Assembly (NCBI GenBank): GCA_964016885.1
Contig: OZ024742.1
Span: 40,052,001 to 40,116,000 of the forward strand
Direction of reading: 5' to 3'
Length of the DNA stretch: 64,000 bases
Source of the DNA: Eledone cirrhosa
Taxonomy: Eukaryota
The first letter of the stretch is position 1, and each line of letters starts with the position of its first letter. This document shows, in pieces, positions 1,226-58,628 of the stretch. A program made the translations under genes and the position numbers. Under the pieces are notes generated by a model. It saw nothing but the letters and a program-made list of their open reading frames with translations. It had not been told where the DNA came from and did not search any database.

Positions 1226-1453
1226 TATCAGGAGAAAATATTTAGCTTGTACGTCTTTGTTGCTGCCTCTTTTTTCCATATAAAACAAGTAACACTCAAA
1301 GACCAACCAGATGTGAGAAAAACCACAGACCCTCCATCTTAACTCTACTTTTGAAAAGCAGAAAAACTGCGAAACCGGTAAAAGAACCAAATAAATATAT
1401 ATATTTAAAAAAAAAAAGAGTCCAGTTGCATTTTCGATTTCATCTTTTTTCCT

Positions 1454-3302: not shown

Positions 3303-3456
3303 TATGTATATATTAAAGAGTTAAACAAGATTCAATGAGTATATCAAAGAATGAGTTTTACAGTAGATTGGAAGCACTCTATGGTAAAATAATTTTCCAG
3401 AGTTATTAATATTAAAATACAAATATCAATAAAATAGATGTTCTTTTGATCAATTA

Positions 3457-3511
3457 CATTTTATTATACATATTTCGGATGTACAACAGTACGTCCTCAT
3501 CAGACAAAATA
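3457..3511 (-). ncRNA. Minimal type I hammerhead ribozyme
   Basis: Minus strand reads UAUUUUGU CUGAUGA GGAcGUAC uguu GUACaUCC GAAA UAUGUA UA^AUAAAAUG; stems I and II pair and the core is canonical. Confidence 0.85.
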
Positions 3512-4996
3512 TAATGATACATGACATACCCTGAGATGTTAAATGGTTAAGATTTAATCAAGGTAGTGATTAACCTAAGAGAAAGTTTAACATTCATACC
3601 CTAATAATGAGAAAATGCGAAAACGTAATAAATTCAATAGAGAATGTGTGAGTAAGAAAAACGTTGCTTAATGTAATAGTTATAGAGATTTTAAAATGTA
3701 TGAAACTACAATTTATCAGGGAAAGCGGTCAATGAGAACCGCTGAGATAGTATATATATAGAGAGGGAAGATAAGTGGTAATATATGTAGGAGATTTTCC
3801 GAAAGATAAACGGTTAAGTTTGAAAATATTTAATTTATGCTATTTTAGGGTGAAGAATCAAGATTTTAGGGTTTTTTTTTTAAATTGCAGGTTATTTATT
3901 AGTTTTGTAAATTCAATAAGTGTTTTAACATTTCTAAACTTCGGAATTTTATGAGGATAACTTTTAAAGGTGAATTATAACTTAAAAAGTGAATTATTCT
4001 CTAGTTGCCTCCACAAAGCTACGTCCACATTCTTAGCCTCCCACAAAAAGAGAGAAAAAAGAAAGAAAAAAAAAGAGAAAGAAACACTTAACCATTAAAA
4101 AGTTGGTTGTGAGACGTATATAATCAACAGGGGAAAACATTAATGGCCTTTAATATTGCATTATCTTATAATCTATCTATAGAAGAAATAACGCTTGAAT
4201 GAAAAACACTTGTTCAATAACATGCCGGAACATTGATATACATAACATAATATTATAATTATTAATTTTGATCCATACCATTATTTCTTTATTTCTCTAT
4301 CTTTATCTTCCTACCTAAGGTTTAAATTTTAGTTTAATATCCAACCCATGCATTTTTATGGAACTTATTTCTAACTGTGAATTTTTCATGTGTTTTTGAT
4401 TATTATTTATTTCGAACTATGAATAATTAATGCATTTACACCCTGTTATATTGGTATATATTTAACTTTGCATGCCTCAATCTATTATATTTTTTTCGTT
4501 ATCATTTACCTAAAATATACTGCCTCATTAATAAATATCTATATCATAATCGTTAATTAAATATTTCTAACAATAAGTACTTCATAAGATTTACATACCA
4601 TATGTTGACAATGATTATCTTCGGTAAAGTTTACATTTAGGAAAATATTCAACAGTGTAAACTTTCCTTGCTTTTCTTATATATATGTATTTAACTATAA
4701 CAAGTTTCGAACTTTATTATATAAAATTATAACCGTTATCATTTACCTAAAGTATGCTGTATCAATAATACCTAATTTATATCAATAATACCTAATTTAT
4801 ATCCATATAAACCTCCATGTATCATTTTATACATAATTTTTAGTTAAATTTATTGATTATCATTTATTTTGAACTATGAATAATCAATGCATTTACACCC
4901 TTTTATATATACGTATATATTTAACTTTAGCATGCCTCAATCTATTATTTTATTTTTATTTTCGTTATCATTTACCTAAAATATACAGGCTCATTA

Positions 4997-6059: not shown

Positions 6060-6141
6060 TATTTGTTGTCTGAGGAGGACATGTTTTGCTTCATGTTATA
6101 CATAAAACTTTGCATCTTCGAAATATATATATAATGAAATA
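6060..6141 (+). ncRNA. Minimal hammerhead with long stem II loop
   Basis: UUGU CUGAGGA GGAcAUG...CAUcUUC GAAA UAUAUAUA UA^AUGAAAUA; same family as 3457 and 31436. Confidence 0.65.
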
Positions 6142-6504: not shown

Positions 6505-6615
6505 ATTTCTAATTTTTACTGGACCGGCAATTGCTCTGTATAATCAGTTCCTGATTATTACTGGAATTCTATAAGAATTCAGCTTCGATAAGTCTCGGAA
6601 GAAGCGGAGGGATAA

Positions 6616-6660
6616 GCAATCTTGATAACCGTTAACAAACGAGAAACAGCTGTCGGTTGC
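6616..6660 (+). ncRNA. Hammerhead with U3-A8 variant core
   Basis: GCAAUC UUGAUAA cCGUU aaca AACGa GAAA CAGCUG UC^GGUUGC; 6-bp stem I and palindromic ACAGCUGU stem III. Confidence 0.7.
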
Positions 6661-6802
6661 TTCTCTTTGATTTTGCCGAGACAAAGTAAGTGACTACGTC
6701 ACTTCTTTAAAACTCATAGCGAATGGTCTTCAAAATGTTTTTAAATAAACATACAGTATATTATCAAATATACTATACATACATTCATATATATATATAT
6801 AT

Positions 6803-7005
6803 AACGAAGGAAATGTGGTAAGGAACCAGGTGGACCATAACGCACCAAAGTACTCAATACTTAGGGTAGTAGAGTGGGTAATAGGAACGAGTAGGACCCC
6901 GACGGTTGAGCTCAAGCCGTTTCGACGGCTAATTCTGGACTAAAATCAGTCCAGAATTTTAGTCCAGAATTAGCCGTCGAAACAGCCGTCGGGGTCCTAC
7001 TCGTT

Positions 7006-7010
<5 letters not shown>
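6803..7010 (-). mobile_element. Fold-back half-hammerhead element (CCGTCGAAACGGC family, copy 2)
   Basis: Reverse-complement copy of the 25062-25257 element; inversion centre lies in the GGACTAAAA/TTTTAGTCC hairpin. Confidence 0.75.
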
Positions 7011-7050
<40 letters not shown>

Positions 7051-7060
7051 ATAATGCCAG

Positions 7061-7137
7061 GTCGCTCTCGAGTGCTACTGGTAACATGTAACCCAGTACA
7101 ACCTCCCTCGTGGTCAGGTCGTCGGTGACTAAACCGG
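7061..7137 (+). ncRNA. Candidate HDV-like ribozyme (degenerate) at the 5' end of an RTE-type repeat
   Basis: P2 CCAGU, P3 ACC/GGU around L3 UCCCUCGU, P1' GGUCGUC, GG, J4/2 CUAA, P2' ACCGG; the 5' strand of P1 (GUCGCUC) pairs only 5 of 7. Confidence 0.5.
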
Positions 7138-7805
7138 AACCCCACCAAGCTTGCTTGGTGGTGAGGAGGGTGATATTTGGACACCCTGCGGGATGAAATA
7201 CAAGACCCAGCAAAGGGCTGAGTAACTCAGCAGAGTCAACGGCCAACCAAATAACACTATTTTTTTTTTCAAGGAGAAGGAAATTCTGAAAAAGACCCAA
7301 AAAACAAACAAACAAACACTGGGGCTTTGGAAGCATCCGATGATGTTGACCTGTTCTCCTTTTCGGGTGGTGTTTGCGATTCAGAGAGTGGGTTTGGCCT
7401 TTTCCCCACTAAAAAAAACCCCTTCAAATCACAAGCATTGCTTGTTCAGGATATGTTACAGATTCATGTGGTTGGCCGTAGCCTAAAAGTGCACCATTTT
7501 CTGTAATCTGACAAGCAATTGCAATACTTACAGACTTTGCAGTGTATGGTGTCCGCCTTAACCTGTTTTGCTCGATAACCAAAAGAGCTTAAATAATCAA
7601 AATAATTGAAATAACTCGATAAGCAGAGCTATTTATCAAATTACAAAATATGATTTCGCTTCAAGTATAGCTTTATACAAATATGTATAGAAATTTCGTA
7701 TTTCTAAAGAAACAGTATGTTTACAAATAACATTTAGGAAGCCGTAGCAATGCAAATACCGGGACTAACGCCCTCCGATGGTGTCCAGTAGAAGCAAGGG
7801 GGACA

Positions 7806-7849
7806 ACCGTCCATGTATTTCAGGCTTGACTGGCCTTCATCAGGACGGT
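7806..7849 (-). ncRNA. Hammerhead with G at the cleavage position
   Basis: ACCGUC CUGAUGA AGGC cagucaa GCCU GAAA UACA UG^GACGGU; perfect 6-bp stem I; N17=G is normally not cleaved. Confidence 0.7.
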
Positions 7850-7899
7850 CCCTCCCACAGCTTGCAACTCATACCCTGTTTCTTTAGAAATACGAAATT

Positions 7900-8039
<140 letters not shown>

Positions 8040-19603: not shown

Positions 19604-19889
<286 letters not shown>

Positions 19890-19991
19890 CTGTTTCTCGA
19901 CCGTTATATCGCGTGACTATCTCCCCCTCCGCCTTTTGGGATTCTTTCTCACGTCGTGTAGACGCGTTCTTGAGACTAGTAAAATGAGGTA

Positions 19992-20079
19992 TCCTCTTGA
20001 TAAGTCGGCAGACCTCGCAAGGACTCTATATCTTTGATATATTGTTTTTGTTTATGCCACGAAACTACGTAGTCGAGGA
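19992..20079 (+). ncRNA. Hammerhead with U3-A8 variant core and long stem II
   Basis: UCCUC UUGAUAA GUcGGCA...UGCCAC GAAA CUACGUAG UC^GAGGA; perfect 5-bp stem I and 10-nt palindrome ACUACGUAGU. Confidence 0.75.
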
Positions 20080-20316
20080 ATTTAGGAACAGTTTAGGTAT
20101 GATACATTTTATTACTAATTATATCTAAATGTTTCTTCTCTTTTCATAATGTATTTTTAACTCTGATACTGGTTCAGTCTGGTTCAAACTGAATTGGTCT
20201 GTCCCAGTCATTCATTGAGCAACATCGGTGAAGTTGGCACCCTTAACTCACAGTTGGGTGCGGATGCATTCATGTATATATGTGTGTGTCCGCATGTATC
20301 TGTGTGTTTCTAAATG

Positions 20317-20350
<34 letters not shown>

Positions 20351-26374: not shown

Positions 26375-26439
26375 TATTTCATTATACATATTTCAGGGAT
26401 ACCAAATTAAATTATGGTATGCCTTCATCAGACAAAATA
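26375..26439 (-). ncRNA. Minimal hammerhead (left arm)
   Basis: Reverse complement of 26596-26660. Confidence 0.85.
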
Positions 26440-26595: not shown

Positions 26596-26660
26596 TATTT
26601 TGTCTGATGAAGGCATACCATAATTTAATTTGGTATCCCTGAAATATGTATAATGAAATA
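26596..26660 (+). ncRNA. Minimal hammerhead (right arm)
   Basis: UAUUUUGU CUGAUGA AGGcAUACCA...UGGUAUcCCU GAAA UAUGUA UA^AUGAAAUA. Confidence 0.85.
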
Positions 26661-31435: not shown

Positions 31436-31500
31436 TTTATTTTATTATATATATTTCAAGGGTACTAAAATTTTGGTACGCTCTCATCAGATAAAATAAA
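31436..31500 (-). ncRNA. Minimal hammerhead at the 3' end (pLTR) of the Penelope element
   Basis: UUUAUUUUAU CUGAUGA GAGcGUAC...GUACcCUU GAAA UAUAUA UA^AUAAAAUAAA; perfect 10-bp stem I. Confidence 0.9.
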
Positions 31501-32818
31501 AAAGTTATTTTATAAATAGTGACATATCCAAAAAACAAGAACTTATCGTTTTAAGTTCTGTTTGACTATTCTATTAATATTTTACTACAACTTTAAAAGA
31601 CTTAATTTTTAAAGCCTAATTAAATAATTATTAAATATGTATTAAAATATAATACCATGCATATATCCCCATCAATACATATAATATATTTTGTTCATTT
31701 ATTATCCAAATTAATTTAGAAATTCGCTTTATGAAAACTTTGTTATTATTTAATTTTCATTTATTTCTTAGAATCCAACTGTGGTTATATTTACTCTCTA
31801 TAATTTTATTTTATTTAATGAATGGTTATATTCACTTCTGTATTAAGTTATTCTGATATATATAGTTTCCTTTTAATGATAGACTATGTATTATTAAACT
31901 ATTAATCATTATTTATTAATCTATATATCATATTTTATGTGTTTTTTCAAGCTAGTCAAAAAGAAATTTTTACGGATAATGTAAACAAAAGGAAGATAAC
32001 TCATTCACAATGTACAAGCATATTTAACTTATAGGGAATCTCTTCTCTCACATCCAGCGATATTTTAAAAGCCTTAAATTATCTATTGCATATATCCTAA
32101 TTGATGCCTAATTAAATATTGACCTATCCTAATCAAAGCATAGGATAAACAGACTCCTAATGAAATTATTCCATTACATAAGAATATCAATAAATTATTA
32201 CTTCAATTAAGCAAAATTTATATATATTTAAATTATTAATTGCCCTTATTTTTTTTTGGAACTGGTACATTGCCTGGAAAGTTTTACCAATTTTATGATG
32301 ACAAAAACTACTAAACAATTCATTTTTTTTTTGTTGATTAAATTGTCATAATTTGTGATTATCTGCAGAATCTCTTCGTTGCAAAGATAGCAAATTTCTG
32401 AGATTTTTGAATTCTGGTAGGACGTAGCATACCTTAATTTCCTCCAAGAGATGGAGTATTTAATATTATTGTCCTTTAAAGACCATACTAATTGTGAAAG
32501 TGAAGTTGAAAATTTCTTATCTGGTCTATTAAAAGTATGCCTATGATTATACCAACGTTCCTTAAATTTAGATAAGGTGGCACCTATGTAGTTATATATA
32601 TTATTATTTGCCTTAATGGTTCATTTATATACTAGATTTTTGTCAAGGCAATTATTTTGTAAAGGACATTCAGACCTCTTTCTACAATTACATTTCTTCT
32701 CAGTGTTATTTACAGACGTTATACTATTCACATTGCTATTTAAAGGCGTTCTACTATTATTCGTGTTTAAACTATTATTATTGTTATTCCTATTAACTAA
32801 TATATTATTATTATTATT

Positions 32819-33778
32819 GTTCTTTGAGTCTCAGTCATTGATGTTAGTTAGCTGGAAAGTTTGTTGAAATGAATATCAAGCCACTACCTGCAGCCTCAGA
32901 TATTCAGGACGTATCGGAGGGTTCTTGCTGTTCCCAGCAAGCATGCCTTTTGAAGCGTTCCAAAAAGCGTGAAGGGGCCAATTTTCTTTAACCATCCCTG
33001 GAAACCTTTTGAGATAGTACCTAGTGCGCCTATGACAATCGGGACCACTTTGACTTCATGGCAGTGCCAAATCCTTTTTACCTCCCAATTTAAGTCCTGG
33101 TATCGGTTACTTTTCTCCCTCTCCTTCTCTTGCACTCTCGTGTCGAATGGGCAGCCCACATCCACAATCAGGCACGATCTTTTTACTTTGTCCAAAAGCA
33201 CCAGGTCAGGTCTATTGTGTTCCAGTTTCTTGTCCATCTGTATCCTAAAATCCCACAGCACCTTCACCTGATCGTTTTCTATCACCGACTCTGACTTATG
33301 CTCATACCACTTCTCAGAATGTGGTAAATTGTTTACTTTGCACAGGTGCCAGTGGATCACCCTGCCCATCACATCATGTCTCCAGCCCTTATAGTGAGTC
33401 TGGGCTAGGTGTTTACACTCGGATACAATGTGAGCCACAGTCTCCTCTCTCTCTCCACAGATCCTGCACAGTGGGCTAGCCTCCTCCTTGTAAATATGGT
33501 GTTTCAACCACTTCGTTTTGAGGGCCTGCTCTTGCGCAGCCATTAGCATTCCTTCTGTAGCCTTTTTAAGGTCTCCTCTTTTCAACCAGTTCCATGTCTG
33601 TGGATCTCTGAATTCAGTTTTCTCAAAGAAGGTACTATGAAGGGATTTTTCCTGAAGGCTGCTCTTTCTCCTTATTTCCTCCCTGGACATCCCCTGGTCT
33701 ATTGTCCTCTCCTTCAGTACAATTCTGTGCATTGGTTCCTTACTATCAGTCACGTATTTCTGTAGGTTGTTTTTCTCC
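32819..33778 (-). mobile_element. R4/Dong-like non-LTR retrotransposon, 5'-truncated copy 1 (REL endonuclease region)
   Basis: ORF 33753-32896 contains CCHC CRICGEREETVAHIVSEC, RHD, PDLV..IVDVGCP and K..RY; bounded by (AAT)n. Confidence 0.85.
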
Positions 33779-33836
<58 letters not shown>

Positions 33837-36060
33837 GTTCTTTGAGTCTCAATCATTGATGTTAGTTAACTGGAAAGTTTGTTGAAATGAATATCAAGCC
33901 ACTACCTGCAGCCTCAGATATTCAGGACGTATCGGAGGGTTCTTGCTGTTCCCAGCAAGCATTGCCTTTTGAAGCGTTCCAAAAAGCGTGAAGGGGCCAA
34001 TTTTCTTTAACCATCCCTGGAAACTTTTTAAGATAGTCCCTAGTGCGCCTATGACAATCGGGACCACTTTGACTTCATGGCAGTGCCAAATCCTTTTTAC
34101 CTCCCAATTTAAGTCCTGGTATCGGTTACTTTTCTCCCTCTCCTTCTCTTGCACTCTCGTGTCGAATGGGCAGCCCACATCCACAATCAGGCACGATCTT
34201 TTTTCTTTGTCCCAAAGCACCAGGTCAGGTCTATTGTGTTCCAGTTTCTTGTCCGTCTGTATCCTAAAATCCCACAGCACCTTCACCTGATCGTTTTCTA
34301 TCACCGACTCTGGCTTATGCTCATACCACTTCTCAGAATGTGGTAAATTGTTTACTTTGCACAGGTGCCAGTGGATCACCCTGCCCATCACATCATGTCT
34401 CCAGCCCTTATAGTGAGTCTGGGCTAGGTGTTTACACTCGGATACAATGTGAGCCACAGTCTCCTCTCTCTCTCCACAGATCCTGCACAGTGGGCTAGCC
34501 TCCTCCTTGTAAATATGGTGTTTCAACCACTTCGTTTTGAGGGCCTGCTCTTGCGCAGCCATTAACATTCCTTCTGTAGCCATTTTAAGGTCTCCTCTTT
34601 TCAACCAGTTCCATGTCTGTGGATCTCTGAATTCAGTTTTCTCAAAGAAGGTACTATGAAGGGATTTTTCCTGAAGGCTGCTCTTTCTCCTTATTATTTC
34701 CTCCCTGGACATCCCCTGGTCTATTGTCCTCTCCTTCAGTACAATTCTGTGCATTGGTTCCTTACTATCAGTCACGTATTTGTGTAGGTTGTTTTTCTCC
34801 ATCTGAACACAGTCCTCTATGCTGATAAGACCTCTTCCACCTTCAGATCTCTTTAAGTAGAGTCTATCGACATCACTTCTCCTGTGGAACATGTTGTAGA
34901 TAGTCAATAATTTCCTAGTCTTCCTATCCATTTCTTTTTGTTCAGCAAAATTCCATCTCAGAATTCCCGCACTGTACCTAATAATAGACACAGCTCGGGA
35001 ATTGACTGCACTTATGGCATTCCTACTGTTCAGATGTGACTTTAATACGCTCCTTACTCTCCGAATGTATTATTTTCTTATCAATTCCTTTATTTTTTTT
35101 GTTCTTGATGTCATCAGCCTCCAGAACACCCAAATACTTGTATCCTTCTTCAGTGTCAATTTCCTTTATCATCTCACCTGTTGGCACCTGGATTCCGTTA
35201 CTTCTGCTCAATTTACCCCTCTTCATCACAAGGACTCCACACTTACTAATACCAAATTGCATACATATATCATTGCTGAAAATACGGACAGTGTCAACAA
35301 GCACATCCAACTCCTTCTCGCTCTTCCCGAAGAGCTTAAGATCGTCCATGAAGAGGAGGTGATTGATGGTAAGCTCTCCCTTTCCCAACTTGTATCCTGC
35401 TGTCACTTTTCGCAGTATAATGGTCAGGGGCATCAGGGCAAGGACAAACAACAGAGGGGACAGACTATCTCCCTGGAAGATACCTCTCTTGATCTTCACG
35501 CCTCCCAAGGATTCTTCAGCTCATGTTAACTCTGTTTCCCAGGACTTCATACTTTTGCCCAACAACTGTCTGATGTTTTCTGCCACCTTGAAGATCTTCA
35601 GGCTTTTGGTGATCCAAGAATGAGGCACCATGTCAAATGCCTTTTTGTAGTCTATCCATCCCATGGCAAGACCAGTGTGTCTCCTCTTGCAATTCCTCAT
35701 TACCATCTTATCAATAAGTAACTGGTTCTTTGTACCACGGGACTTCTTTCGGCATCCTTTCTGTTCGTCCGGTAACAAGTTGTTTGTGTGGAGGTGATGG
35801 TAGATTTCCTCAGACATAATGCTTGTCAAGAGTTTCCACATTACGGACAGACATGTGATAGGTCTATAGTTGGTAACATCATTACCCTTGATTCGGTCCT
35901 TCATTACCAGAACTGTGGTACCTTTTGTCTACCACCCTGGTACCTCACCTGACATCAAGCAGTCATTGAACATGGTTGTCAGTTTCGGGTGGAGGGATGT
36001 TATATTTTTAATCCAATACCCCTGCACACCATCTGGGCCTGGTGATTTCCAGTTGGTTAG

Positions 36061-36062
<2 letters not shown>
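33837..36062 (-). mobile_element. R4/Dong-like non-LTR retrotransposon, 5'-truncated copy 2 (RT plus REL), frameshifted
   Basis: [42 protein letters not shown] and the REL motifs; bounded by (AAT)n on both sides. Confidence 0.9.
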
Positions 36063-36118
<56 letters not shown>

Positions 36119-37477
36119 GCTAATTATAGGTTGGTTCAATTTAAAAAATGTATTATTTGTTTTTGCTATATTTTGAGCAATATTCATAGTTGTTGAGTAA
36201 GATAGTTTAACTGTGTGTCTATTGAAGATAGGGTAGTATTTATGTGATCTAGGGAAGCATTTATGCAAAGCTTTAAAAAATAAATGTGCTACAGGTGTTT
36301 TAATAGCTAAAGATGCTGGCGGAGCATACCAAATTATAGATCTAGTTTTTATTTTTTTCTTCGATTTATTCATCCAGTTGTTGTTTTTATATTCATTTTT
36401 ATTATGGTTATAATTGATTCTATTTTGGTGGATTTCTGTATTTTTATCTATATACACAATGTTATTGCTATATCCAGCTTTATGTAACGCTTCATTATAA
36501 TATATAGCTTTACTATTAAATATGGATCTATTAGCAGATAGCTTGGATATTCGTTGTTGTACACTGTTGACTATTGCATTCTTAACACTTTTAGGATGAT
36601 TAAAATAAAAATTGACATAATTTAAGTTCTCATTGACTTTATGGAAAGGATAATAAAGGCCTGAGTTCAGATTTAGAGTCACATCTAATACATTTACTAT
36701 TTTATTATTATTTTCTATTTCTAATTTCAAGTCATAATTTTAAAAAGATTCTATAATTGCTTTCTTTACTCTATTTAATTCACTATTGTTATGTTTTACT
36801 ACAATAAATAGTATGTCGTCCCTATATAAACCTCCGGTAATCTCCGTCAATTTTCTATTTATCATGTTAAGGATAAAAATTCCCACAAGATCTGTAACTT
36901 GCGCCGAATCTGACGAACCCATCGTAATGTGAAAATTCTTCGGTCTATCTGCCCTAGTCCAAAGATCATTATTAAAATCAATCAAGGTTCACCTTGCTGT
37001 TAATATAATATTTATTTCCTCACTAGATAGGTATGTGTGTTTATATGCATATGATAGCGCCTTATTTAATAGATTAGGAGTTATCGAGGAATAATAACTG
37101 GCTATATCCATTTGAATGAACTTATAATTATTTTAGTTTTAATATTTTTGAACCAATCTATAACTTCACTTGTGCCTTTCCATAGATTTAGCTGTGATTT
37201 CAATTTAGGTGTTGATAAAATCCTATCTATTATATTTTTACTAATTATTCCAAGATCGGATTTAGAAGGTGCTATGAGTCTAACTGGTAAATCCCTCTCA
37301 AAGTTTCTTTTATGGTCTTTAAAATTAATCCGCGGCTGTTTTGGTATGAAAGGTTCCGTTTTCCGCTCTATTCCAAGATTGGTGGTAATTTTGAATGCCT
37401 CATTATTAATGTCCAATAAATCCTCGTTTGAGGCCTTTTTATAATTTTTCCTCAGTTCTTTTAAAATTAAATCATTA

Positions 37478-40400
37478 TGTGCCAGGCGCCCACTTTTCCC
37501 GGTCTTTGTTTGACCCAGGATTGCAGCTCAGTGAGCGAGACGAGTCGTGGAAAAGCTCGCCTCACAAACGGGGCCCACACCGGTTTATAGGTGAGGAATA
37601 CCTGGAGGTGCCGTAGCCTTAGTGCGTGTTTACGCATCGTCAGCCACGGCATCCCCAGCCCTCCGTTAGAGGGTGTTGACAGCAGATGGATCTTCTCACC
37701 AAAGGGGCCCGCTTCTTCCAGAGGAATTGGAAGAGCGCGCGCTCCACTTTGGTGAGCGTTTTCGCTGCACAAGGCACGACGGTCAAGCGGTAGTAGATGA
37801 CGGACGCTATATAAGCGTTCGCCACCTCCGCTCGACCTTTCAAGGATAGTTTGCACTCGGCCCACTTCTGGGCGAGTGCAAACACCTTGGCCGTTACCTC
37901 GTTCCAGTTTTTCTCCACCTGGAGGTCTGGTCCGAACCAGACCCCAAGCAGCTTCACCGGTCCCTCCGTCCAGCGTCCGACGACGCCATCGGAGGGCATC
38001 GGTTTGCCTCTCCACGTTCCGAGTTGCAAACCGACCGACTTGTCCTGGTTCAGCTTGGCTCCTGTAAACCTTTCGTATTCCTCCATTAAGGTGCCGATCT
38101 TCTCGACTAGCGAGGCGTTCGACGCCATTACTGTCACGTGATCGGCGTAGGCCGACACCGCTTTCCGCAATCCTGGTTCCAAAGGGATGCCCTAGAACAG
38201 CTCCAACTTCCGCAGTAATGGCTCGAGAGTCAGTACATACAGAAGAGAGGAGAGAGGGCATCCCTGTCGGATGGATCGCGTGATTTGGAACGGCTCCGAT
38301 AGGTAGCCGTTCATCTTGACCCTTGAGCAGATGTTGCTGCTGTGCATAGCATCAATCCAGCCTCTGAAAACGGGTCCGAAGCCTGCTGCTGCGAGCACCG
38401 CATCCAGGTAACGATGGTCGACCCTATCGAACGCCTTAGATTGATCCAAGTTGATCAGGGCCCCACCGAGGCCGGGTTCACTCCCTACCCTCTCTACGGT
38501 GTATCGCATGAGGTGGAGGTTGTCGTGTATGGACCTGGACGGCATTGCGCATGTCTGCGCTTCTCCCACCAAGTTCCCGACGACAAGCGCCAACCTCTTC
38601 GCTAACACCTTGGCCAAAATCTTTAACTCTGCATTTAGCAGAGTTATGGGCCTGAAGTTACCTATATGGCCCCCCCTGTTTTCGTCCTTCCTCACTAGCG
38701 TGACTACGCCCTTGGTCACAGAACTAGGAATTCTCCCGTTCGGTTGCCAGTTGCAGTAGACCGCATCAAGAAGATCGGAGAACAAGTCCGGCATAGTTAC
38801 GTAAAGTTCGTATGGTAGACCATCAAGACCCGGAGAATTGCGTTTGCCGCATTCGCTCAGCGCGTCCCCTATTTCAGCGGCTGAAATCGGCCCTTCGCAG
38901 GACTTCGCCTCTCCGTCCGAGAGCCGCGGCAGACCATCGAGGTATGGAGTGAAATCCAGAGTCTCTCCTGCCGCGCCGTCCCTCCCGAACAGTCCTGCAA
39001 AGTGCTGCTGAAAGGCCGCGCATATCCGCTCCGGTTTAAGGATCACACGTCCATCCTGGTCCTTCAAAGACCGAATCGTGGACTTCTTTCCACTTTTTGC
39101 CTCTGTCACTTGGGCCCAGCTAACAGCTTTGGCTCCCTCGTTTCCTAGAGCACGTGTTTTACTCCTGACAACGCAACCTTAGTGCTTCGCGTCAAAGAAC
39201 TGGTCTAAGGCCGTTCTTGAAGCCAACACACTGATCACGTTGCCACTCCTAAGCGCCTCTTCTACTCCATCTACTAGTTCTTTTTCCGTTTTAACTCTAT
39301 CTAGCGCTAGTTCCTTGCTAAATCCTATTGATTCTAATCTAATTGCTCTCTTGAGAGAGCCCCACCACCTGTTGTTGATTATTGCCCCCGTCAACTGTTG
39401 CTTAACTAATGTGCTAATTCGACTACTGTACGCTTTGCTTGTTGGTAACGACAAGTTCAGCTTCCAGTAGCGGGGTCCTTGTCTATGGATTCTTTCAAGG
39501 TTGATTATGCAGGTCACTAATTTGTGATCTGAATAGTCAACCATGAACATTTGTGGACAGCTTAACATGTCCCTATCCTTATTTCTAACTAGAAACCTAT
39601 CTAGGTACGATCTAGATGTTCCGCTACGGTTTGTCCACGTCCACAGTGGCACAGTCGGAAAATCTAGTCGGTATCTATCGGCCAATTAAAATCGGCCGAT
39701 TAACTGTTTAAGGCTGTTTCACCCCCTCTATCGGGACATGCCCGTACATAGTCCCAACGTGTATCTAGGATTCCATTCCAGTCCCCCACTAAAAGCAAGG
39801 AGCGGCACGTTCCCAGAAAAGTTTCCAGACGTTTGAAGAAGTCTGGCTGCGATGTCCTGGACGGCCCCCAGTATGAAGGCTCCACCTTCACTATTGTTGA
39901 CGTCTAGGACGACCAGTCAACCCTCCAGGTCCAGATGTACCGTCTGTGTTACGAGGTCCAGGTGTTTCCGCAGCAAAACGGCAACCCCGCCCCCACCTCC
40001 CGGCTGACAGAGAGATGCGTAGCTCTCAAAGTCGTCGAAGATGGGGGCCAGCTGCCGCTCGCTGTGGATCCTGGACTCGCAAATGGCTACTACATCCATA
40101 CTGTGCGACCTGAGGTCGTTTAAGAGTTTGGCCTGTTCCCAGGGCATCCCCAGGCCGCGTACATTCACACATCCAACTCTTATATTGGCCATGTTGGTGC
40201 TGAAAAGTTAAAAGAAGAGAAAAAGAGATTACTTACCTCTTCGTCTCCTGGGGACCAGGCTGCAAAATTTCCATGGGGGTGTTGGAGGGGTTGTTTGGTG
40301 GGGTGGTGATTTATGGCGGGGTGGGGACGGAGATGTTTTGTGGAGAGGGGGTGTCTGGTGGGGTGGGGGTGTCTGGGGTGGGGTAGGGAAACATTTTAAT

Positions 40401-42200
40401 AGGACTCGGTTGTAAGGTTTGACGCAGGGGTTGCCTACGTCGTTTGGAAAGTTTTCTTTTAAATGTTTATATATGTCTATCGGGATCCTAATCATCTTAA
40501 GATTAAGTTTTTCCCACGAGTAGGTAAAAGTTTTCCCTTCGGTTTCTACCAAAGGGTCTTTGGTTATAACCTGCATTAAAGTTTTATTGTCTGTGTTTAT
40601 TGTATGTGTACTGTTTTTGTTGTGTAGTCTTAGTTTTTGTTTGTTGTTCTTGTGTGTGTTTTCTCTTTGTTGTTGGTGTTTTGTTTTCAGGCAGGCGCGG
40701 GGGGGGGGGTGATGTTTGTGTTGTTTGTGTTGGTGGTTGTGTGTTTGTTGTCTTTTTGTTCGTGTTATGTCTCTTTTTTTTTCTTTTTGCGCGGAGGGGT
40801 TCTCCCTCATTATCACTGAGTGATGATGAGGGGGCCTCGTCCGTTGTGGTGTCTGTGTGATTGGGGAAGGGTACGTTTTGGGGAGGTGTTGTGCTTGTGG
40901 GTGTTTTGGGAGTTGTTTTAGATGGGGATGGGTTGGGTGGGACTGTGTTTGCGGTTTGGTTTGTTTTGGTTAATTTTGTGTGTTGTTGTTGTTGTGGTGG
41001 TGGTGATGATGGTGGTGGTTGCGTTGTTGTGTTGGGCGTCGGCAGTAGTGCCTTTTTTTTTCAGCACAGTTAACTGAGGACAGGAAGCCCTCAAGTGACC
41101 ACTGCTTAAACAGTGGTAACATGAAGGCCTCCTACCCTCAACAGAAATGTTTATATAGGAAATTCCGTCCAGAGGCACACGTTGTGGTATTCTAGCTATT
41201 CGTTCTGGCCTCATTTAAACCAGAACTTCTAGGCTAGTACCACCAAATACGTCCCTGGAGGACTTTCGCATTGAAATTAATGTGTCTTCATCAAAGTTGA
41301 TGAAGCCACATAATATCCACCAAATATTTACATTTGGTTTAATGCTTGACACTCTTACTTATTGTGTCCTTTTGCCCATATATGTGGGGGAAAAGGTGTA
41401 GAGGGGGACACAATTGGCGACACAGAATATTTCTGTGCTTTCAATTGGTCTTTCATTATCACTGATAAACTCCCGAAGAGTTTTCCCTTCTGTATGAAGG
41501 TAATATCTTTCATGTAGTTTCTTAGAACCAGCTCAATTTCATTTTGCGTTAATTGAGCTGGTTTTCTGGTGGTATTTGAAATTGTCCTGAAAATTATAAT
41601 TTTCAGGACAGTTTCTCTACGCAATTCTTGGGGAGAAGTGATGCTATAAGCGCCATTCTCCCCAAAAGTCACGTATTGCCTTGCGTCTTTTAACATTTCC
41701 TTGGCATTTGAAATGTCAATCGGTGTATACATTTCTGTCTTTTGGACAGTTTGTGCAAAAGAAATTTTGGTCGTGGGGGTGTTCATTTTGGTGTTGGTGT
41801 CTTCCTTGTTGCTGTTGTTGGTGTTGTTTTCATCATTGTTGTTGATGTTGTCCTTGTTATTGATATTGTTCTGGTTGGTGTCGTTTGCATTTTTCATGGT
41901 GTTGGTGCTGTCATTGTTGCTGTTGTTGGTTGTGGTGTTGTTGTCATTGTTGTTCTGGTTGGTGTTGTTATTACTGTTCGGGTTTGATCCCGTGTTTATA
42001 TGCTTCTCAAACATGTCGACGTTCACAACGTCTTTCAAAAAGGTGAGGGCGGAAGGCTGCGAGCTTTCTACTCTTACTTCCTCTCCACCACTTTTCTCTG
42101 TATCTCTCACTTCCCTTTACCCCCTCTAACAGTCACTCTCTCTGTTAGCCTCTTCCTCACTTTTCACTCACTCACTCTCTGCTACTCCCTCTCCTACTTC
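37478..42200 (-). mobile_element. L1/Tx1-like LINE with broken ORF1 and ORF2; 3' end missing
   Basis: ORF1 pieces 42110-40229 include zinc knuckle CYHCLSSGHLRASC; ORF2 APE (NVRGL, GDWN, LDRF, SDHK) and RT (PGLDG, FRPITLLN, KAFD, QGCPLS, YADH). Confidence 0.9.
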
Positions 42201-54250: not shown

Positions 54251-54305
54251 GCTGCTATATATATTTCAGTGACAGCCATCTTTGGCTGTGACCTCTTCAG
54301 GCAGT
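54251..54305 (-). ncRNA. Minimal hammerhead (left arm)
   Basis: CUGC CUGAAGA GGUcACAGCCA aaga UGGCUGUcACU GAAA UAUAUA UA^GCAG. Confidence 0.85.
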
Positions 54306-54614: not shown

Positions 54615-54669
54615 ACTGCCTGAAGAGGTCACAGTCAAAGATGGCTGTCACTGAAATATATATAGCAGT
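54615..54669 (+). ncRNA. Minimal hammerhead (right arm)
   Basis: ACUGC CUGAAGA GGUcACAGUCA aaga UGGCUGUcACU GAAA UAUAUA UA^GCAGU. Confidence 0.85.
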
Positions 54670-58333: not shown

Positions 58334-58628
58334 AATAGCTTTCACCGTATTTTTGACTAAAGAAATTTTAGCCTGATAATGGAGTTTAGAACCCTCAGAT
58401 AAATGGAAAAAATGAGTATTGACGTACATGGGAGTCGAACCCACATCTTTGGTTATCCAGACCACTGTGCTACCATTACACCAACACATCACCCATCTCC
58501 TTCCATTCAAATTAGATGTGGGTTCGACTCCCATGTACGTCAATACTCATCTTTTTCCATTTATCTGAGGGTTCTAAACTCCATTATCAGGCAAAAATTT
58601 CTTTAGTAAAAAATACGGTGAAAGCTAT

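What the first reader, a model, noticed from the sequence alone, without database searches (positions are those of the whole stretch)
19992..20079. Second, unrelated U3-A8 hammerhead
Seen: UUGAUAA core again, with entirely different stems (UCCUC/GAGGA, 10-nt palindrome ACUACGUAGU, extended stem II). Two unrelated families showing the same double change argues for true covariation and a U3-A8 lineage of elements in this genome.
Basis: partly seen in the sequence, partly recalled or inferred. Interest (0 to 1): 0.75.

Follow-up and report, generated by a model that had tools for sequence, protein, structure and literature searches.

The report
Swapped-core hammerhead in a Penelope-type repeat
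This is a predicted self-cutting RNA motif with a rare but already published base-pair swap in its core, inside one truncated copy of a non-coding repeat that has thousands of copies in this animal genome and was likely pasted in by Penelope-type retrotransposon enzymes.

Summary
The motif is real: a type I hammerhead with a U3-A8 core at 19992-20079, inside a truncated copy (19889-20321) of a 591-bp non-coding tandem unit. The genome holds 6,296 exact core matches against 28 single-site variants and no C3-G8 copy. In 800 kb sampled at even steps, 33 folded hits were C3-G8, 12 U3-A8 and none mismatched, so the covariation holds. U3-A8 is already published, including about 1,300 hits of a Penelope-derived descriptor in Schistosoma (PMC4209133, PMC3088659). 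One 'U3-A8 lineage' is not shown: the core sits in four sequence-unrelated groups, one with a C3-G8 relative. Copies lie in (TA)n, with two fixed 3' ends at +80 and about +246; 59 of 72 inverted insertions use one of each. This matches Penelope internal initiation at two sites (PMC11167929). No coding partner was found and cleavage is untested; a cut-site footprint was inconclusive. The scan reported this family before on other DNA. Verdict: new member of a known kind.

The parts
19889..20321 (+). 5'-truncated single-arm copy of the 591-bp non-coding unit (unit positions 406-591 then 1-247), about 98-99% identical to a full unit
   Evidence: blastn of a full unit from L016 against the window
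19992..20079 (+). Type I hammerhead motif, U3-A8 core
   Evidence: sequence, structural scan, fold evaluation, family alignment
19997..20003 (+). Core U3 U4 G5 A6 U7 A8 A9
   Evidence: 6,296 exact genome matches; 14 with another base at 3 and 14 at 8; 0 C3-G8
20004..20060 (+). Long stem II: G-C, U-A, bulged C, GGCA/UGCC, internal loop, distal hairpin of about 14 pairs kept mostly through G-U/A-U one-side changes
20064..20073 (+). Palindromic stem III (3 bp as monomer, 10-bp duplex as dimer)
   Evidence: no hairpin alone, homodimer -12.9 kcal/mol
20074..20075 (+). Predicted cleavage site after GUC (C17)
   Evidence: hammerhead numbering (established knowledge); cleavage not tested
19985..19990 (+). 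Leader UGAGGU, complementary to ACCUCG at 20012-20017: candidate stem I/II pseudoknot, or a rival fold
   Evidence: RNAalifold pairs them; first pair U-A 50, U-G 62, C-G 5, other 2 of 119 distinct copies
20150..20154 (+). Short fixed 3' end of the family (+80 from the cut site), read through in this copy
20315..20321 (+). Long fixed 3' end (+245 to +247), where this copy joins (TA)n
19606..19888 (.). (TA)n target microsatellite on the left (a shorter one lies at about 20320-20347)
20097..20253 (+). GT..AG stretch with donor-like, branch-like and acceptor-like motifs; possible retained intron, untested
   Evidence: motifs printed; spliced junction in 0 of 362 loci
6614..6662 (+). The window's first U3-A8 hammerhead (other family; 72 exact matches of its 3' 18-mer)
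1347..1385 (+). Third U3-A8 motif (UUGAAAA family, 15,002 exact matches of an 18-mer); stem I weakened in this copy

Best explanation
The motif is a type I hammerhead with the U3-A8 core pair inside a 591-bp non-coding repeat with thousands of copies, which is likely a non-autonomous Penelope-like element (non-LTR retrozyme) copied by a borrowed PLE reverse transcriptase-endonuclease. Shown: copy number, fixed U3-A8 core, head-to-tail units, inverted arms, (TA)n targets and two fixed 3' ends. Inferred: tandem loci are transcribed; the PLE protein nicks (TA)n and starts reverse transcription at two internal sites (+80 and +246), one per target strand; it copies backwards through the hammerhead junction on an uncleaved multimer or a re-ligated circle; the two 5'-truncated arms are then joined. 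The ribozyme would cut after C17, most likely as a dimer through the 10-nt palindrome and possibly braced by a leader/stem II pseudoknot. U3-A8 is a tolerated Watson-Crick swap of C3-G8 that probably arose more than once in this AT-rich genome. The window copy is a sub-unit-length, single-ribozyme remnant.
For: Copy number and core. The unselected 5' core positions carry 2 non-majority bases in about 608, against 0.8-7% per 30-nt bin outside the hammerhead. U3 is kept in 39 and A8 in 40 of 40 older-subfamily motifs (the locating pattern allowed 2 mismatches). Stem I shows a U-A (99), U-G (9), C-G (9) path among 119 distinct copies. Unit 591 bp, 41.5% GC, no frame over about 50 codons. Of 142 complete insertions, 72 are inverted two-armed: 59 pair +80 with +246, 1 has two long ends, 0 two short, 12 have an end elsewhere. 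186 of 189 fixed ends abut TA-rich DNA. Units within a locus differ by 1.6 sites on average (30 pairs); between loci the median is 14 and 0 of 790 pairs differ by 1 or less. An autonomous PLE of this genome (784-aa RVT_1 + GIY-YIG) has the same two-end, TA-targeted form and a UUGAAAA core in 28 of 30 loci. Literature: two internal initiation sites and the 'tail' (PMC11167929); tandem/inverted/tail structure (PMC8557442); retrozymes as non-autonomous PLEs (bioRxiv 10.64898/2026.07.22.740005).
Against: No coding PLE sharing sequence with this unit was found in the fetched loci. No cleavage or expression data exist here. The whole-structure covariation score does not beat column shuffles (94.2% cells paired, 2 pairs with changes on both sides, 230 of 500 shuffles as high). 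The DNA footprint of cleavage is inconclusive. The related autonomous PLE carries GCAA in place of GAAA and a 4-bp A-U stem I yet has at least 150 near-identical copies, so an intact ribozyme may be dispensable. In vitro a PLE used unprocessed RNA and did not need its hammerhead.
Confidence: 0.85

Rival explanations
1. The hammerhead fold is kept as a recognition or folding signal for the PLE protein and cleaves little or not at all; uncleaved multimers are the template.
For: Only 64 copies lack C before the cut site among roughly 7,000-8,000, so copying runs through the junction almost always. No clear pile-up of 5' breaks at +1. The related PLE has a C13 core. Hammerhead mutants did not impair insertion in vitro.
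Against: Core positions are more conserved than the rest of the unit, and 3-8 pairing is kept across families. 18 of 30 inspected hits were breaks at +1 against 4 of 20 at one control site.
Confidence: 0.3
2. All U3-A8 hammerheads in this genome descend from one swap in an ancestral PLE.
For: Two related PLE 3' ends share UUGAAAA (70% over 122 nt; GIY-YIG 51% identical over 76 aa). Three further repeat families with U3-A8 share flanks.
Against: Four U3-A8 groups share no detectable sequence. One of them shares 82-83% flank identity with a C3-G8 repeat. The swap also exists in Schistosoma and in the examples of PMC3088659.
Confidence: 0.2
3. The unit is a satellite spread by DNA-level mechanisms, and the hammerhead is a relic.
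For: Head-to-tail units are nearly identical within an array.
Against: Arrays are short and dispersed, have variable 5' and fixed 3' ends, inverted arms and TA targets.
Confidence: 0.04

Closest known systems
U3-A8 minimal hammerheads of Schistosoma mansoni PLEs (Cervera and De la Pena 2014, PMC4209133; read parts 1-2 of 4 of the main text, no supplements)
   Same: Type I, U3-A8 instead of C3-G8 (about 1,300 hits there), palindromic helix III, short helix I, G10.1-C11.1, inverted pairs of motifs 100-700 bp apart.
   Different: Here stem II is 57 nt with an internal loop, there is no unpaired base before stem II, copies are young and uniform, and the unit is non-coding and tandem.
Natural U3-A8 core variants and stem I/II pseudoknots (Perreault et al. 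2011, PMC3088659; passages read)
   Same: C3-G8 covaries to U3-A8 in several natural examples, described as already proven active in vitro; about 40% of hammerheads predicted to use a pseudoknot.
   Different: This sequence was not assayed; its pseudoknot would join the 5' leader to an internal loop of stem II and rests on weak covariation.
Animal non-LTR retrozymes (Cervera and de la Pena 2020, PMC7229834, passages; Li et al. 2026, bioRxiv 10.64898/2026.07.22.740005, part 1 of 5 and passages)
   Same: Non-coding tandem units with a type I hammerhead, GC under 45%, proposed to be non-autonomous PLE derivatives.
   Different: The unit is 591 bp against about 300 bp; non-canonical core; circular RNA not shown here; no homologous pLTR found.
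PLE insertion signature and internal initiation (Frangieh et al. 2024, PMC11167929, parts 1-2 of 4; Craig et al. 2021, PMC8557442, passages)
   Same: Partial tandems, inverted 5'-truncated copy, AT-rich targets, two fixed ends downstream of the hammerhead.
   Different: The distance between the two ends is about 166 nt instead of 30-40, and the two arms of an insertion almost always use different ends (59 of 60 with both ends at fixed sites).

Membership tests
Type I hammerhead ribozyme | Core N3 UGA N N8 A / GAA / UH around three helices, 3-8 Watson-Crick pair | tested here: met
   U3-A8 pairs; not the canonical C3-G8
Type I hammerhead ribozyme | Helices supported by variation among copies | tested here: inconclusive
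   one stem I pair shows U-A/U-G/C-G; overall score not above shuffles, far above slid controls
Type I hammerhead ribozyme | Match to an Rfam hammerhead model | tested here: not met
   no hammerhead family at E<=10 over 19940-20130; long stem II and variant core may explain it
Type I hammerhead ribozyme | Site-specific self-cleavage after H17 | not testable with these tools
   only an indirect DNA footprint was tried, inconclusive
Non-LTR retrozyme | Tandem non-coding units each with a type I hammerhead | tested here: met
   591-bp period, up to 4 complete units in one arm, longest frame about 50 codons with no Pfam hit
Non-LTR retrozyme | Low GC (<45%) and short monomer (about 300 bp) | tested here: inconclusive
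   GC 41.5% fits; 591 bp is about twice the typical size in PMC7229834
Non-LTR retrozyme | Expressed as linear and circular monomer RNA | not testable with these tools
Non-autonomous Penelope-like element | Partial tandems, inverted 5'-truncated arm, tail at one end, AT-rich target | tested here: met
Non-autonomous Penelope-like element | Sequence shared with the pLTR of a coding PLE | tested here: inconclusive
   none in the loci fetched up, nor among 25 representatives; that is under 0.1% of the genome

The most novel reading that the evidence does not exclude
This young family is a natural record of PLE integration chemistry: one RNA molecule, possibly a self-ligated 591-nt circle, is primed at two different internal sites 166 nt apart, one for each target strand. 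Its U3-A8 hammerhead is an active, pseudoknot-braced dimeric ribozyme, and the 3-8 pair has flipped independently in several PLE lineages of one genome.
Probability: 0.3. Interest if true: 0.55.

Novelty: new member of a known kind. Interest (0 to 1): 0.3.

Why it matters
The U3-A8 swap is known, so the headline claim adds one more large natural example. About a quarter of folded hammerheads in the sample carry it, so descriptors that demand CUGANGA miss many copies in such genomes. The more useful part is the insertion anatomy. A strict one-short-end, one-long-end rule with a 166-nt tail gives a sharp prediction for the in vitro PLE system of PMC11167929, where no strand difference in start site was seen. 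It also offers a substrate for asking whether retrozymes are copied from circles or from uncleaved multimers.

Tried and rejected
DNA similarity search of the genome with the 221-bp region returned nothing, not even the window itself, and is uninformative. Rfam found no hammerhead. No RNA holder was listed; four coded runs of unknown kind held only contigs, which showed the sequence with no core variant at 10% share and cannot show expression or ends; one 621-nt contig wraps once round the unit, which tandem DNA explains equally. Cut-site footprint: 64 hits lacked C17, 18 of the first 30 were true breaks, against 33 hits and 4 of 20 at one control position, suggesting about five-fold excess. 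A finer look did not confirm it: by my hand tally of the first 100 of 395 rows (43 distinct loci), 3 begin at +1 and 5 at +2, but 6 begin at -19 and about 10 at +10, where TA microhomology or the pattern edge favours a join. A shared-polymorphism test for a single-monomer template was blurred by alignment gaps and old copies (319 variants fixed within insertions, 210 polymorphic). Search for a coding partner: GIY-YIG frames next to this family were separate insertions. Spliced copies: 0 of 362 loci. Pfam on five PLE fragments of the window and on a 50-codon antisense frame: no hits. A single U3-A8 lineage and a DNA satellite were considered and ranked low. No RT tree was built.

Full report
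Observation. The hammerhead fold lies 1.1 kcal/mol above the MFE. The fold alone is unremarkable (z -1.85) and Rfam does not find it. Stem III has no stable hairpin alone but forms a -12.9 kcal/mol homodimer, the arrangement described for dimeric PLE hammerheads in PMC4209133.

The family. A 15-mer from the 3' half has 8,071 exact matches in the 3.0-Gb genome, often 591 bp apart. The unit is 591 bp, 41.5% GC, with no frame over about 50 codons. The window holds a truncated copy, 19889-20321, between (TA)n tracts. The 20-mer over the core matches 6,296 times; 14 copies differ at position 3 (8 C, 4 G, 2 A), 14 at position 8 (8 G, 4 T, 2 C), and none is C3-G8. An older subfamily, 75-85% identical, with 378 matches of a diagnostic 26-mer, keeps U3 in 39 and A8 in 40 of 40 motifs from 40 fetched stretches. 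The unselected 5' core positions vary less (2 of about 608 bases) than bins outside the hammerhead (0.8-7%). One stem I pair moves U-A, U-G, C-G across subfamilies (99, 9, 9 of 119). The structure as a whole does not beat column shuffles on 18 sequences.

Covariation across the genome. In 80 evenly spaced 10-kb stretches my descriptor (palindromic stem III of 6 nt or more, so minimal motifs are missed) found 45 hits: 33 C3-G8, 12 U3-A8 (2 probably spurious), and none of the other 14 combinations; controls gave 1, 0, 0, 0. Grouped by eye that is 13 against 3 families (p = 0.002). So the pair covaries. The window holds two more U3-A8 motifs, at 6614-6662 (72 matches) and about 1347-1385 (15,002 matches). 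Comparison of 500-nt flanks of 25 representatives gives four unconnected U3-A8 groups: this family; the 6614 family with two relatives; the 1347 family with a coding PLE; and a single further motif. The second group shares 82-83% identity over 72-97 nt with a C3-G8 repeat of 311-bp period. This argues for repeated swaps or reversion, plausibly through U3-G8 under AT-biased mutation (inference), and against one lineage. No tree was built.

Link to Penelope-like elements. One copy of the 1347 family lies 1,025 nt behind a GIY-YIG frame. A related two-frame element encodes a 784-aa RVT_1 + GIY-YIG protein with a C-x4-C-x2-C linker, which fits the Neptune description in PMC8557442 (clade not tested by a tree). 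It has at least 150 near-identical copies, a UUGAAAA core in 28 of 30 loci, GCAA in place of GAAA, and two fixed ends in (TA)n. The 591-bp unit shares no sequence with it or any other element fetched, so its partner is unidentified.

Insertion anatomy. Among 142 complete, de-duplicated insertions, 72 are inverted two-armed and 70 one-armed. 5' ends vary; 3' ends fall at +80 or +245-247 from the cut site. 59 of the 72 pair one short with one long end, 1 has two long ends, none two short, and 12 have an end elsewhere. One-armed copies end at +80 (37), +246 (22) or elsewhere (11). 186 of 189 fixed ends abut TA-rich DNA (the loci were picked by several patterns and are not a random sample). Near-full units within a locus, opposite arms included, differ at 1.6 sites on average; between loci no pair of 790 differs by 1 or less. 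This fits one template molecule per insertion, circle or young homogeneous multimer. PMC11167929 showed that a PLE protein starts reverse transcription at two internal sites that delimit the genomic 'tail', uses unprocessed RNA and does not need hammerhead cleavage. The two ends here are best read the same way, with a 166-nt tail.

Is the ribozyme active? Not shown. Copying runs through the junction in over 99% of copies. A first test suggested excess 5' breaks at the cut site (18 of 30 inspected of 64 hits, against 4 of 20 of 33), but a histogram of 43 loci from the first 100 of 395 rows showed equal or larger peaks at microhomology positions. RNAalifold pairs the leader UGAGGU with ACCUCR in the stem II internal loop. 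This is compatible with the hammerhead as a pseudoknot of the kind in PMC3088659, or could be a competing fold. Support is weak: C appears at the first pair only opposite G (5 of 119).

Comparison and novelty. U3-A8 was reported as natural covariation in PMC3088659 (passage) and in about 1,300 Schistosoma motifs found with a PLE-derived descriptor in PMC4209133. Tandem hammerhead repeats as retrozymes and as non-autonomous PLEs are in PMC7229834 and bioRxiv 10.64898/2026.07.22.740005. Six paper searches listed no description of this family or of a strict short/long arm rule; only listings were seen for most hits and subscription papers are missing. A 2017 paper on dimer-cleaving PLE hammerhead variants is recalled, not retrieved. 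Earlier scan notes describe the same 591-595-bp family and its two ends on other DNA; I had the reading before that call and tested it here. Verdict: real, ordinary in kind, with a useful mechanistic footprint. Interest 0.3.

Noticed in passing
window 3453-3515(-), 6066-6137(+), 26375-26439(-), 26596-26660(+), 31436-31500(-), 54252-54304(-), 54615-54669(+): Seven canonical C3-G8 type I hammerheads with palindromic stem III, two as inverted pairs; the one at 31436-31500 lies about 760 nt behind a GIY-YIG frame.
   Followed up: partly
L263:3170-6500, L264: Young two-frame PLE (455-aa ORF1 without Pfam hit, overlapping 784-aa RT-EN) whose hammerhead-like motif has U3-A8 plus C13 and a 4-bp A-U stem I; may be a dead or unusual ribozyme in a recently active element.
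   Followed up: partly
window 6614-6662; L036:1480-1520: The first U3-A8 family has C10.1 opposite A11.1 instead of G-C, in two diverged relatives, and a long bulged stem I extension.
   Followed up: no
window 20097-20253 and about 6685-6692: A donor-like GT motif follows the hammerhead by 20-35 nt in this family and in the 6614 family; a possible retained intron as in other PLEs.
   Followed up: partly
L066:5520: The 5' junction of one copy runs directly into sequence resembling the UUGAAAA family's 3' region, a possible template switch between families.
   Followed up: no
window 32246-41969: Nested fragments of several retroelements (PLE RT and GIY-YIG pieces and at least two non-LTR types), all on the minus strand.
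   Followed up: no
window 58420-58490(-): tRNA-like Rfam hit, 49.7 bits; possibly a SINE head.
   Followed up: no
L099 (G000:C1:19617000-19626999): A whole two-armed insertion with flank is duplicated at 2.55-kb distance.
   Followed up: no
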